Shown piece by piece: positions 13,166 through 15,477 of a DNA stretch of 46,114 nucleotides. Made by a program: the position numbers and the translations under genes. The stretch is from sequence record SRR31156797_3653. The stretch is one strand, 5' to 3'. The notes under the pieces are model-generated. The model was not told where the DNA came from, ran no database searches, and worked only from the letters and a program-made list of their open reading frames with translations. Position 1 is the stretch's first letter. Each line of letters opens with the position of its first letter.

Positions 13166-13894
13166 TTACTTATGGCAGACAAAAAACCAGCGACGGCTTT
13201 TTTCATTTGGTTTTGTATCGATAAAATCAGCGTAGCATTCAACATTAGCAAAACCAGCATTTTCTAACATTCTTAAATAGCTTTCGAGAGGATAGGTTCT
13301 TTCTTGATGAAGCTCATCTAAGCGTTCAAACAACCCATTCTCTTGTGCAACAAAAAAGGTCAAGAAATGTTCAATGCTATGGTCTTTTTCTCCTTGATAG
13401 CTTTCCCAAAGAAAGGCAAATTCATCCGTCTGGTAATGGTAGCTATAATCAGGAAACACTTCATTGATTTGATATAAGGAATGCACATCAAATAAAAAGA
13501 CGCCATCTTCTTCTAAACAACTGTAAACACCATCAAACACTTGCTGCACACTCTGCTCATCTTCCATGTAGCAAAGAGAGTCAGAATAGCAAGTAATAGC
13601 TTGATAGGTGCCAATATCTACGAGATCCAGCATGTCACCCGCAACAAATTGCACAGCCGCCTCTTCTTTTTCAGCCCGTTGACTAGCGATCATCAGCATC
13701 TCTTCTGAAAGATCTAACCCAGTCACATCAAAACCAGCCTTGGCAAATTCAACGGCTAACGCACCGGTTCCACAAGCCAATTCTAACAGCTGTTTTCTTT
13801 TTCCTAAATGACGACAAGAAAAATCCAGCCACTTTTTATAGAGACTGGAATCCATTACTTCGTCATAGACAAATGCGAAGGTTTCGTAAGCCAT
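13166..13894 (-). CDS. Class I SAM-dependent methyltransferase (YqeM-like)
   Basis: YETFAFVYD, ELACGTG, DLSEEML. Start at MAYETF, overlapping the rsfS stop. Confidence 0.9.
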   Translation of the reverse strand: MAYETFAFVYDEVMDSSLYKKWLDFSCRHLGKRKQLLELACGTGALAVEFAKAGFDVTGLDLSEEMLMIASQRAEKEEAAVQFVAGDMLDLVDIGTYQAITCYSDSLCYMEDEQSVQQVFDGVYSCLEEDGVFLFDVHSLYQINEVFPDYSYHYQTDEFAFLWESYQGEKDHSIEHFLTFFVAQENGLFERLDELHQERTYPLESYLRMLENAGFANVECYADFIDTKPNEKSRRWFFVCHK

Positions 13895-14250
13895 TACGCC
13901 ACGACCCATTCATTAAGATCCACAAGCGGCGCATCAGACCATAATTTTTCTAGGTTGTAAAAAGCACGTTCTGAGGCACTGAATACGTGAACGATTACGT
14001 CACCTAAGTCGATCAAGACCCATTTTCCACCATCTTTTCCTTCGACACGGCGAACAGATACTTGACTTTCTTCTTCTTTATCGATGACTTCATCAATGAT
14101 CGCATTGATTTGACGTTCACTATTTCCTGAACAGATCACAAAGTAATCTGCTAGCAAAGAGATTTCCCGCACATCTAATGCCATAATATCTTCGGCATGT
14201 TTTGAATCGGCGGCTTTTACAGCAATTTCTAATATTTTCTGACTATCTAT
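13894..14250 (-). CDS. rsfS: Ribosome silencing factor RsfS (Iojap), probable AUA start
   Basis: ADYFVICSGNSERQI, WVLIDLGDVIVHVF, FYNLEKLW. The conserved N-terminus (KILEIAVKAADSKHAEDI) extends 22 codons upstream of the first ATG to an ATA codon 8 nt after SD AGGAGG. Confidence 0.92.
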   Translation of the reverse strand: MDSQKILEIAVKAADSKHAEDIMALDVREISLLADYFVICSGNSERQINAIIDEVIDKEEESQVSVRRVEGKDGGKWVLIDLGDVIVHVFSASERAFYNLEKLWSDAPLVDLNEWVVA

Positions 14251-14846
14251 GGTAATTCCCTCCTATATTTGGCTACCCAAAAATTGTAGGTTTCGATCGT
14301 TTTTGGGTAGATAACTGCTTCTGTTTCGATCAAATGAAGCAAGGTATGTTTCGTTTCGTAAGCAACAGCGGCATCTAAGTCGATCATTGCGATTTCCCTA
14401 GCCTCAACGACTCCAGGAAACGTACGCCCGGGTTCGATATAATCTGCCACATAGATGATTTTATCTAGTAGGCTCATCTTGGCAGCTCCGGTTGTGTGCA
14501 AACGGATCGCTTGTAAGATTTCATCATCATCGATCTCTAATTCTCGTTGAACGAAATCAGCACCGACGAGTCCATGCCAGATAGCATTGTTCCAGTTCAA
14601 GAGATCCAATTCAAATCCATCTCTACGAATGACTAATCGAAATTCTTCATCGCTGCGTTCTTTGGCATAATCATGAGTCAAAGCAGCGATGCTGGCTTTG
14701 ACCGGTGAAGCGCCATATTTTTCCGCAAGGGCAACGGCCGTTTTTTCGACACCTAACACATGCTCAAAGCGCTTTTGACTCATCTGCATTTGGACCTTTT
14801 GCATCAAAAGTTCCCGTTCTGCTTGTGTGTAGTGTTCACTCTTCAT
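14247..14846 (-). CDS. yqeK: Ap4A symmetrical hydrolase YqeK (HD domain)
   Basis: RFEHVLGV, HDYAK, WHGLVG, HTTG, ADYIEPGR. Start reassigned to MKSEHY (14846). Confidence 0.93.
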   Translation of the reverse strand: MKSEHYTQAERELLMQKVQMQMSQKRFEHVLGVEKTAVALAEKYGASPVKASIAALTHDYAKERSDEEFRLVIRRDGFELDLLNWNNAIWHGLVGADFVQRELEIDDDEILQAIRLHTTGAAKMSLLDKIIYVADYIEPGRTFPGVVEAREIAMIDLDAAVAYETKHTLLHLIETEAVIYPKTIETYNFWVAKYRRELP

Positions 14847-15477
14847 CCAAGTACAACCCCTTTTCTTGAATATAGTGTAACACATTATCAGGCAATAAGT
14901 AGCGAACCGAACAACCTTGTTGCACTTTTTTACGAATTGTTGTTGAGCTGACATCCATTAGAGGAATATCGATCCAAATAATCGGGTATGGGCTATCGAT
15001 CGGCACTTCCGGGCGGCGAACCCCCACAAAAGTTACCAATTCCATCAGCTCATCGATTTGATGCCATTTTGGTAAATAGTTCACCATATCCCCGCCAATG
15101 ATAAAATAATAATTAGTATCTGGATTCTTAGCTGTCAATTCCCGCATCGTATCAACCGTATAACTCTTACCTTTTCGTTCCAACTCAATGGTCTCTACAG
15201 CAAATCGCGGATTATCGGCGATCGCCAACTTCAACATCGCTAAACGATGCTCAGCGGGAATTGTCTTTTTCTCATCAACATGAGGCGGTAAATACTCAGG
15301 CATGAAATAAACTTTATCCAGCCCTAATGCTTGCCCTACTTGCTCACCCATGACCAGATGTGCGTAGTGTACTGGATTAAAATTTCCACCAAGAATGCCC
15401 ACTTGCTTTTTCGGTACAAGTTCTTGTGTTTGTGTCTCTAAAACCGTTTGTACCTTTCCAAATGTTTGTCCTTGCAT
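14836..15477 (-). CDS. nadD: Nicotinate-nucleotide adenylyltransferase
   Basis: GGNFNPVHYAHL, SYTVDT, FIIGGD, VSSTTIR. Confidence 0.96.
   Translation of the reverse strand: MQGQTFGKVQTVLETQTQELVPKKQVGILGGNFNPVHYAHLVMGEQVGQALGLDKVYFMPEYLPPHVDEKKTIPAEHRLAMLKLAIADNPRFAVETIELERKGKSYTVDTMRELTAKNPDTNYYFIIGGDMVNYLPKWHQIDELMELVTFVGVRRPEVPIDSPYPIIWIDIPLMDVSSTTIRKKVQQGCSVRYLLPDNVLHYIQEKGLYLDEE

What the first reader, a model, noticed from the sequence alone, without database searches (positions are those of the whole stretch)
14184..14264. rsfS appears to initiate at a non-canonical AUA codon overlapping the yqeK stop
Seen: the minus strand reads AGGAGG-GAATTACC-ATA-GAT-AGT-CAG-AAA..., a perfect SD 8 nt before ATA (14250-14248). 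The ATA overlaps the yqeK TAG as 'ATAG', analogous to an ATGA coupling overlap. An in-frame TAG lies 5 codons upstream, and there is no ATG/GTG/TTG until 14184. That ATG lacks an SD and would delete helix 1 and the conserved K-x-AEDI motif. Known: non-canonical starts (infC AUU) are discriminated by IF3 and used for feedback control, and RsfS blocks subunit joining. Inference: RsfS output may be held low and tied to initiation fidelity or re-initiation after yqeK, a possible unrecognised translational feedback loop.
Basis: partly seen in the sequence, partly recalled or inferred. Interest (0 to 1): 0.72.

Follow-up and report, generated by a model that had tools for sequence, protein, structure and literature searches.

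The report
Conserved AUA start codon of rsfS
The gene for the ribosome silencing factor RsfS in this Enterococcus-type genome most likely starts at the rare codon AUA, a choice kept across two whole bacterial families and shared with the gene for initiation factor IF3, which probably holds RsfS production low.

Summary
The minus strand reads AGGAGG (14264-14259), an 8-nt spacer, then ATA (14250-14248). An in-frame TAG lies five codons upstream, and the first ATG/GTG/TTG is at 14184.

The motif alone could be chance (0.22 expected per window). Conservation is what decides it.
- **Family survey:** of 86 rows from 17 genera, the SD-proximal start is ATA in 72, ATC in 6, ATT in 1-2 and ATG in 6.
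- **Second family:** of 25 loci, ATA 9, ATT 10, ATC 2, ATG 4.
- **Rest of the class:** of 86 loci, ATG 69, TTG 12, GTG 2, and 3 doubtful.
- **Internal control:** conserved internal Ile codons of the same gene are ATA in 0-1 of 86 rows.
- **Solved homologues:** residue 2 aligns to residue 2 of solved RsfS structures.
- **Not an error:** contigs from four studies carry the same letters.

The ATAG overlap with yqeK is not the conserved feature; it occurs in 14 of 80 scorable rows.

infC in the same genomes also starts at ATA behind a strong SD. AUA starts of this kind were mapped in S. aureus in 2025, but not for rsfS.

Public gene calls for this gene give starts ranging from 96 to 134 aa. IF3-linked feedback remains inference.

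Verdict: real, and a new member of a known kind.

The parts
14259..14264 (-). Shine-Dalgarno sequence AGGAGG of rsfS, lying inside the last codons of yqeK
   Evidence: duplex -11.3 kcal/mol. The GGAGG core is 5/5 in 63 of 82 family rows and the spacing is 8-9 nt in 77 of 82.
14248..14250 (-). ATA, the proposed rsfS initiation codon (read as fMet)
   Evidence: At this column 71 of 86 family rows have ATA, against 0-1 of 86 at six conserved internal Ile columns. It aligns one residue before residue 2 of 2o5a and 6sj6.
13894..14250 (-). rsfS coding sequence, 118 codons plus the TAA stop
   Evidence: TIGR00090 at 122.2 bits against a cut-off of 56.9. PDB RsfS homologues at E 9e-38 to 4e-25.
14247..14249 (-). 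yqeK stop codon TAG, overlapping the ATA as ATAG
   Evidence: The overlap is kept in only 14 of 80 scorable family rows.
14263..14265 (-). In-frame TAG that closes the rsfS frame five codons upstream of the ATA
14254..14256 (-). ATT, an alternative table-11 start only 2 nt after the SD; judged not used
   Evidence: -6.1 kcal/mol in the scanning window. This column is ATT in only 42 of 86 rows and is otherwise ACC, TTT, ACT, CCT or AAG.
14233..14235 (-). ATA at codon 6, implied as the start by the 113-aa public gene calls; judged an internal Ile codon
   Evidence: P0004 and P0011. No SD, at -1.7 kcal/mol. The column is ATT 44, ATG 19, ATA 15, CAA 7, TTA 1.
14182..14184 (-). First canonical ATG (codon 23), giving the 96-aa gene calls; judged internal
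   Evidence: P0045; -1.8 kcal/mol. 41 of 82 AUH rows have no ATG/GTG/TTG between the upstream stop and this codon, this codon included.
14247..14954 (-). yqeK (Ap4A hydrolase), the upstream operon gene
   Evidence: TIGR00488 at 158.6 bits against a cut-off of 70.15.

Best explanation
rsfS is translated from the AUA at 14250-14248. This codon lies 8 nt after a full-strength Shine-Dalgarno sequence and is read by initiator tRNA as formyl-methionine, giving a 118-residue RsfS that begins M-D-S-Q-K.

The weak codon is not an accident of this strain. It is an old trait held by selection in most genera of this family and in a second family of the same order.

Its most likely effect is to keep RsfS synthesis at a fraction of what an AUG would give from the shared nadD-yqeK-rsfS operon mRNA. 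RsfS blocks subunit joining by binding uL14.

Shown: the sequence, the conservation, the SD geometry and the fit to solved homologues. Inferred: that AUA is the codon actually used, the size of the attenuation, and that excess RsfS is what selection acts against.
For: 1. **Geometry.** AGGAGG, 8 nt, ATA. SD energies are -11.3 kcal/mol for this start against -1.7 for ATA14235 and -1.8 for ATG14184; the window median is -10.6.

2. **Conservation in the family.** 86 rows were read: 85 genomes of 134 held, from 17 genera, plus the window. The SD-proximal start is ATA in 72, ATC in 6, ATT in 1 plus 1 probable, and ATG in 6 (all in genera g6 and g7). ATA is the majority state in 14 of 17 genera.

3. 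**Second family (f8).** Of 25 loci: ATA 9, ATT 10, ATC 2, ATG 4.

4. **Elsewhere canonical.** The other seven families of the order use mostly ATG or TTG. In 86 loci from other families of the class: ATG 69, TTG 12, GTG 2, 3 doubtful.

5. **Internal control.** At six conserved Ile columns of rsfS (residues 22, 39, 48, 51, 80, 86), ATA occurs in 0-1 of 86 rows while ATT and ATC mix freely. At the start column ATA occurs in 71 of 86, and ATG never occurs at that exact codon.

6. **No canonical alternative.** 48 of 82 AUH rows have no ATG/GTG/TTG between the upstream stop and codon 10, and 4 have none in the first 50 codons.

7. **Solved homologues.** Residue 2 aligns to residue 2 of 2o5a and of S. 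aureus RsfS 6sj6/6sj5.

8. **Codons 2-5 are coding.** D-S-[Q/K]-[K/Q] is conserved, with synonymous changes AGT/AGC, CAA/CAG and AAA/AAG.

9. **Not an assembly error.** Contigs of 4 runs from 4 studies show no difference between 14184 and 14270. One of them is a different strain, with 5 differences elsewhere.

10. **Precedent.** Ribo-Ret in S. aureus maps AUA starts at infC, ccpN and citZ and an AUU start at cvfC1, all with strong SDs. Reporters give about 10% of AUG output, and up to 30% (10.1101/2025.06.19.660503, passages read).
Against: - No direct mapping of the start exists for any Enterococcus rsfS. I found no Ribo-seq, toeprint or N-terminal peptide.
- 19 of 82 AUH rows (genera g2, g10 and others) have an ATG at codon 6. 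That ATG could serve as a second or the main start there.
- 20 of 82 rows have an in-frame ATG/GTG/TTG upstream. Three of these have an ATG 1-3 codons before an ATT and were counted as ATG starts. In the rest the codon lies inside, against or well upstream of the SD. Several public gene calls use such upstream codons.
- The rsfS SD is ordinary for this window, ranking 17th of 44. It is not the exceptional extended SD described for S. aureus non-canonical starts.
- ATG starts do exist in two genera of the family and in 4 of 25 loci of f8, so a strong start is tolerated in some lineages.
- Related genomes are not independent samples. The per-genus count (14 of 17) is the safer figure.
Confidence: 0.8

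Rival explanations
1. The start is the ATA at codon 6 (14235-14233), as the 113-aa public gene calls imply. The product would begin M-L-E-I-A-V.
For: - Public gene calls of 113 aa match the window from codon 6 on, with M in place of I (P0004, 64 member sequences). The NCBI record for E. olivae does the same (P0011).
- In 19 of 82 AUH family rows this codon is a true ATG.
Against: - There is no SD: -1.7 kcal/mol, with the AGGAGG 23 nt away.
- The column is ATT 44, ATG 19, ATA 15, CAA 7, TTA 1, so 8 of 86 rows cannot start there.
- Codons 2-5 are conserved as protein with synonymous variation.
- Solved homologues begin five residues earlier.
Confidence: 0.06
2. The start is the first canonical ATG at 14184, giving a 96-aa protein. 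The upstream 22 codons would be untranslated.
For: Many automatic gene calls give 96 aa (P0045 and about 15 similar entries). It is the only ATG/GTG/TTG available.
Against: - No SD: -1.8 kcal/mol.
- It would remove about 17 positions of the TIGR00090 profile and the first 22 residues, which align to solved RsfS structures.
- 41 of 82 rows have no canonical codon between the upstream stop and this position, this position included.
- The upstream 22 codons evolve as coding sequence.
Confidence: 0.03
3. AUA is used mainly by ribosomes that have just terminated on yqeK (termination-reinitiation or 70S scanning). In that case RsfS output follows yqeK translation rather than free 30S initiation.
For: - In the window, stop and start overlap as ATAG.
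- ATAGATAGT carries a TAG in both other frames, and yqeK ends on one of them in 25 of 80 rows.
- In 47 further rows the gap is only 11-50 nt.
Against: - The overlap is not conserved: 55 of 80 rows have gaps of 11 nt or more, 8 of them over 50 nt and up to 294 nt. ATA is kept in 42 of those 55.
- The site has its own SD at optimal spacing in 77 of 82 rows, which would serve independent 30S binding.
- No SD-masking structure is predicted (z -0.79).
Confidence: 0.15
4. The start is the ATT at 14256, the longest table-11 ORF of 120 aa. In relatives the equivalent would be the ATT or ATC codons just before the ATA.
For: the ORF listing with table-11 starts picks ATT 14256. NCBI records such as P0062 (M-I-I-D-S-K) start at such upstream codons. 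ATT-ATC-ATA triplets are common in the family.
Against: The spacing from the SD is only 2 nt. The two upstream columns are ATT or ATC in only about half of the rows and are otherwise ACC, AAA, CCC, CTC or ACT. Only the ATA column is start-capable throughout.
Confidence: 0.03

Closest known systems
infC (IF3) non-canonical start codon: AUU in E. coli, AUA in S. aureus
   Same: Both have an AUH codon in place of AUG behind a strong SD, conserved over long evolutionary distances. In this lineage infC itself reads GGAGGTGA, 6 nt, ATA in all 22 family loci examined, and ATA, ATC or ATT in the 7 loci of five other families where the aligned codon could be read. In genus g1 infC and rsfS share the local context ACC-ATA-G.
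   Different: For infC the codon lets the gene's own product repress it; this autoregulation in E. coli is recalled and is cited in the preprint read. RsfS is not known to affect start-codon selection, so any loop would be indirect. Nothing is known experimentally for rsfS.
S. aureus ccpN (AUA), cvfC1 (AUU) and citZ (AUA) starts mapped by Ribo-Ret (bioRxiv 10.1101/2025.06.19.660503)
   Same: These are Firmicute genes with conserved AUA or AUU starts and a start-proximal SD. The non-canonical codon cuts output to about 10-30% of AUG (passages read).
   Different: rsfS is not mentioned in that paper's main text (0 occurrences). In the staphylococcus-like family f15, rsfS starts with ATG. The rsfS SD here is a plain AGGAGG of average strength, not an extended one. 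The paper's supplements could not be seen.
E. coli rsfS with a UUG start
   Same: It is the same gene with a sub-optimal start codon. PMC10917681 states that rsfS mRNA contains the minor start codon UUG (passage read). The listeria-like family f7 uses TTG in 5 of 6 loci.
   Different: UUG is a canonical weak start. Across 86 loci from other families of the class, rsfS uses TTG or GTG in 14. The S. aureus preprint gives a genome-wide UUG plus GUG rate of 16.5%, so weak starts are not a general rsfS trait.
ATGA/TAATG-type stop-start overlaps (translational coupling)
   Same: In the window the yqeK TAG and the rsfS ATA share two bases, forming ATAG.
   Different: The overlap is lineage-specific, in 14 of 80 rows. 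The conserved unit is SD, 8 nt, ATA.

Membership tests
RsfS / iojap / YbeB (TIGR00090, PF02410) | Profile match above the curated cut-off over the whole domain | tested here: met
   122.2 bits against a cut-off of 56.9. Profile positions 2-99 of 99 align to residues 7-104.
RsfS / iojap / YbeB (TIGR00090, PF02410) | Collinear with experimentally solved RsfS proteins from the first residues | tested here: met
   Residues 2-113 align to 2-113 of 2o5a, and residues 2-112 to 2-112 of 6sj6.
RsfS / iojap / YbeB (TIGR00090, PF02410) | Binding to uL14 and block of subunit joining | not testable with these tools
   Known for the E. coli and S. aureus proteins (PMC3400551 passages; PMC7125091 abstract).
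Genes with a conserved non-canonical (AUH) initiation codon | No well-placed ATG/GTG/TTG, with an AUH codon at functional SD spacing | tested here: met
   Spacing is 8-9 nt in 77 of 82 family rows.
Genes with a conserved non-canonical (AUH) initiation codon | The non-canonical codon is conserved beyond what synonymous drift allows | tested here: met
   ATA in 71 of 86 rows at the start column, against 0-1 of 86 at six internal Ile columns. It is the majority state in 14 of 17 genera.
Genes with a conserved non-canonical (AUH) initiation codon | Initiation mapped experimentally at that codon | not testable with these tools
   No Ribo-seq, toeprint or N-terminal data were found for Enterococcus rsfS.
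IF3-controlled (infC-type) translational feedback | Output changes with IF3 level | not testable with these tools
   Only indirect support: infC of the same genomes also uses ATA.
IF3-controlled (infC-type) translational feedback | The gene product feeds back on its own initiation | not tested
   No evidence. RsfS acts on the 50S subunit (PMC3400551 passages).
Stop-start overlap coupling | The overlap is conserved among relatives | tested here: not met
   Of 80 scorable rows: ATAG overlap 14, other overlap 11, gap of 11 nt or more 55. Six rows were set aside because the yqeK end could not be placed.

The most novel reading that the evidence does not exclude
In these two families, rsfS and infC form a small IF3-sensed pair. 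Both carry AUA behind a strong SD, so both are translated more when IF3 is scarce relative to 30S subunits, or when start-codon proofreading is relaxed, for example by immature 30S subunits.

The cell would then make more of the 50S-side anti-association factor (RsfS) exactly when the 30S-side anti-association and fidelity factor (IF3) runs short. That would couple subunit-joining control to initiation fidelity.
Probability: 0.25. Interest if true: 0.75.

Novelty: new member of a known kind. Interest (0 to 1): 0.55.

Why it matters
**Annotation.** Public databases hold five or more different N-termini for this one small gene in Enterococcus: 96, 110-113, 117-119 and 125-134 aa. A single rule fixes them: SD, 8 nt, AUH.

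**Biology.**
- A factor that shuts ribosomes down by blocking subunit joining is held on a very weak start codon across two families, including clinically important enterococci.
- This start codon is of the same type that controls IF3 synthesis.
- That gives a concrete, cheap test: reporter fusions with ATA against ATG, combined with IF3 titration. The test would show whether ribosome silencing is wired to initiation fidelity.

**Comparative genomics.** The case adds a clearly selected example to the short list of conserved AUA starts in Firmicutes.

Tried and rejected
- **Sequencing error or private mutation:** rejected. Eight species of the same genus and contigs from four studies carry ATA. 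Three of the four runs may be the source of this DNA; one is a different strain.
- **ATA as an ordinary Ile codon:** rejected by the internal Ile-column control.
- **ATA third base fixed only because it is part of the yqeK TAG:** rejected. ATA is kept in 42 of 55 rows where yqeK ends 11 nt or more upstream.
- **RNA structure masking the SD:** nothing significant, at -16.5 kcal/mol and z -0.79.
- **General tendency of rsfS to weak starts across the class:** not supported. 14 of 86 loci use TTG or GTG, about the genomic base rate.
- **Co-variation of the rsfS and infC starts:** none seen. The one ATG-rsfS genome whose infC locus was read, G014 of genus g7, still has ATA at infC.
- **Independent AUH origins outside the two families:** only doubtful single cases. 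L030 (ATT or ATG), L239 (ATC) and L253 (CTG) were not confirmed by the family mates fetched (L267, L268, L272/L273); L223 (ATA or ATG) resolves to ATG in its family mates L269-L271.
- **Literature:** seven searches found no paper on a non-canonical rsfS start (and 48 for context). Subscription journals and supplements are not covered.
- **Laid runs:** all were contigs. They say nothing about transcription level, transcript ends or translation.
- **Own assembly:** the window's own assembly is not held, so no genome-wide scan for other AUH starts was possible.

Full report
**What is in the window.** On the minus strand the operon runs yqeG-like phosphatase, yqeH GTPase, yhbY-like, nadD, yqeK, rsfS, methyltransferase.

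At the yqeK-rsfS junction the sequence is AAATAT-AGGAGG-GAATTACC-ATA-GAT-AGT-CAG-AAA.
- AGGAGG is at 14264-14259 and ATA at 14250-14248.
- The yqeK stop TAG is at 14249-14247.
- The rsfS frame is closed by TAG at 14265-14263.
- The first ATG/GTG/TTG in frame is at 14184, codon 23.

Two further table-11 start codons lie in the frame. They are ATT at 14256, 2 nt after the SD, and ATA at 14235, codon 6.

**Is it more than chance?** The bare motif AGGAGG-N8-ATA is found once in the window, with 0.22 expected, and 19 of 100 shuffles had at least one match. It proves nothing alone.

The SD pairs with the anti-SD at -11.3 kcal/mol for a start at 14250. The figures for the alternatives are -6.1 (14256), -1.7 (14235) and -1.8 (14184). 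The median for 44 ORFs of the window is -10.6, even with each ORF allowed its best canonical start. So 14250 is the only candidate with a normal ribosome-binding site. That site is ordinary in strength, ranking 17th of 44.

**The protein needs these codons.**
- The NCBIfam rsfS model (TIGR00090, 122.2 bits, cut-off 56.9) aligns profile positions 2-99 to residues 7-104 of the ATA-started product.
- Against solved structures, residue 2 aligns to residue 2 of BH1328 (2o5a) and of S. aureus RsfS (6sj6, 6sj5).
- The ATA therefore sits exactly where the homologues have Met1.

**Conservation in the family.** The window's own assembly is not held. The nearest genome shares 87% of sampled words. Named database hits are Enterococcus species.

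I read the junction in 85 of the 134 genomes held for the family (17 genera), plus the window. The 49 genomes not fetched were left out only for lack of fetch calls.

| Start at the SD-proximal position | Rows (of 86) |
|---|---|
| ATA (includes L038, where two extra codons follow the ATA) | 72 |
| ATC | 6 |
| ATT | 1 |
| Probably ATT (L015) | 1 |
| ATG (4 of 4 in genus g6, 2 of 2 in g7) | 6 |

- ATA is the majority state in 14 of 17 genera.
- The GGAGG core is intact in 63 of 82 AUH rows, and the spacing is 8-9 nt in 77 of 82.
- 48 of 82 rows have no ATG/GTG/TTG between the upstream stop and codon 10. 41 have none up to codon 22. 4 have none in the first 50 codons.

**Results against a simple picture.**
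- 19 rows have an ATG at codon 6.
- 20 rows have some canonical codon upstream in frame. Three of these have an ATG 1-3 codons before an ATT and were counted as ATG starts. In the others the codon lies inside or against the SD, or far upstream.

**Internal control.** If the ATA were just an isoleucine codon, its third base should drift like other Ile codons of the gene.
- At the six best-conserved Ile columns (residues 22, 39, 48, 51, 80, 86), ATT and ATC are mixed roughly evenly. ATA appears in 0-1 of 86 rows.
- At the start column ATA appears in 71 of 86 rows. ATG never occurs at that exact codon, although A-to-G is a single transition.
- Codons 2-5 keep D-S-[Q/K]-[K/Q] with synonymous changes, so they are translated.

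**Wider distribution.**
- A second family of the same order (f8) shows the same trait. Of 25 loci: ATA 9, ATT 10, ATC 2, ATG 4.
- The other seven families of the order use canonical starts: ATG in the streptococcus-like family and three others, TTG in 5 of 6 listeria-like loci, and a TTG/GTG/ATG/CTG mix in the lactobacillus-like family.
- In 86 loci from about 35 other families of the class: ATG 69, TTG 12, GTG 2, and 3 doubtful. Of the doubtful cases outside the two families, three were not confirmed by family mates and L223 resolves to ATG in its own.
- The AUH start is thus a clade trait of two families, not a general rsfS property. Weak starts are also not enriched in rsfS of the class at large.

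**The yqeK overlap.** Of 80 rows where the yqeK end could be placed (6 set aside):

| yqeK end relative to the rsfS start | Rows (of 80) |
|---|---|
| ATAG overlap | 14 |
| yqeK ends on the second TAG of ATAGATAGT, or nearby | 11 |
| Gap of 11-50 nt | 47 |
| Gap over 50 nt | 8 |

ATA is kept in 42 of the 55 rows without overlap. The overlap is therefore not what is conserved. It also does not explain the third-base A. A contribution of coupling is not excluded.

**Not an error.** Contigs from four runs of four studies cover 13850-14650 with no difference between 14184 and 14270. Three of them may be the source of this DNA. The fourth is a different strain, with five differences, all in yqeK. 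These are contigs, so they show the letters only, not expression.

**infC.** In the same genomes infC reads GGAGGTGA, 6 nt, ATA-GCA-AAG-GAT-ATG-ATG.
- This holds in all 22 family loci examined, 16 genera.
- The codon is also ATA in f8 (2), f5 (2), f6 (1) and one f4 locus. It is ATC in the other f4 locus and ATT in the listeria-like family (2). In one further locus (L180, f9) the aligned codon could not be read.
- An ATG two codons upstream in the family abuts the SD. It is absent in f4 and f5, where an in-frame TGA lies three codons up. ATA is therefore the conserved infC start.
- In genus g1 both genes share ACC-ATA-G, with 8 nt (rsfS) against 9 nt (infC) from GGAGG.

**What is known.**
- A 2025 preprint (10.1101/2025.06.19.660503; abstract and passages read; supplements not available) maps AUA starts at S. 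aureus infC, ccpN and citZ, and an AUU start at cvfC1.
- It reports about 10% of AUG output for these starts, and up to 30% for ccpN in rich medium.
- It notes that IF3 modulates such starts. Its main text does not mention rsfS.
- PMC10917681 (passage read) states that E. coli rsfS has a UUG start.
- RsfS blocks subunit joining through L14 (PMC3400551, passages; PMC7125091, abstract).
- Searches found nothing on a non-canonical rsfS start.
- That IF3 discriminates against AUA, AUU and AUC in E. coli is partly recalled (Sussman et al. 1996). It is also supported by the listings, where only titles and abstracts were seen.

**Public annotation.** Gene calls for this gene in Enterococcus disagree.

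| Length | Start used | Example |
|---|---|---|
| 96 aa | ATG at codon 23 | P0045 |
| 110-113 aa | M-L-E-I-A-V; codon 6, an ATA in this genus | P0004, and E. olivae P0011 |
| 117 aa | M-D-S-Q-K; the SD-proximal ATA | E. rivorum P0057 |
| 118-119 aa | ATC or ATT just upstream | P0059, P0062 |
| 125-134 aa | Upstream TTG or ATG, reading through the SD | P0015, P0110, P0116 |
| 128 aa | A strain in which the upstream frame is open | P0001 |

Some records already use the right codon, but there is no consistency.

**Mechanism.**
- Shown: the geometry, the conservation, the codon-specific selection and the fit to homologues.
- Inferred: 30S subunits bind the AGGAGG, and initiator tRNA pairs with AUA with a third-position mismatch. 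Output is then a fraction of what AUG would give. Selection keeps it so because RsfS is needed in small amounts relative to its operon partners, or because excess RsfS is harmful.
- More speculative: since IF3 proofreads exactly this class of codons, and infC carries the same codon here, RsfS output may rise when IF3 is limiting.

**Verdict.** This is a real feature. It is a new member of a known kind, the conserved non-canonical AUH start. It gives a useful annotation rule and a testable link between ribosome silencing and initiation fidelity. Interest is moderate.

Noticed in passing
L151-L180 (infC loci of relatives); not in the window: infC starts at ATA, 6 nt after GGAGGTGA, in all 22 family loci examined (16 genera). 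It does the same in loci of four other families of the order, while the listeria-like family uses ATT. The ATG two codons upstream, which some callers would pick, abuts the SD and is absent in families f4 and f5.
   Followed up: partly
window 13894-14256 (-) and proteins P0001-P0120: Public gene calls for Enterococcus rsfS use at least five different starts, giving 96, 110-113, 117-119 and 125-134 aa. The 113-aa form places Met on an internal ATA at codon 6 (14235-14233), which has no SD.
   Followed up: yes
window 14242-14250 (-): ATAGATAGT (codons 1-3 of rsfS) carries a TAG in both other reading frames. In relatives yqeK ends on the first TAG in 14 of 80 scorable rows. In 11 it ends on the second or close by.
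   Followed up: partly
window 14273-14310 (-): A perfect 11-bp hairpin (CUACCCAAAAA ... UUUUUGGGUAG) lies within the last codons of yqeK and ends 9 nt before the rsfS SD. The whole 106-nt region is not more stable than shuffles (z -0.79). Conservation of the pairing was not tested.
   Followed up: no
window 13892-13909 (-): The rsfS stop TAA (13896-13894) overlaps an ATG (13894-13892) of the downstream methyltransferase gene as TAATG. The mechanical ORF list starts that gene five codons earlier, at 13909. Which ATG is used was not examined.
   Followed up: no
L022, L055-L057, L026, L062 (genera g6, g7); L092, L094, L100, L103 (family f8): The lineages that have an ATG start for rsfS carry it one to three codons before the old AUH position, not at that codon. 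The ATA-to-ATG transition at the codon itself was never seen in 86 family rows.
   Followed up: partly
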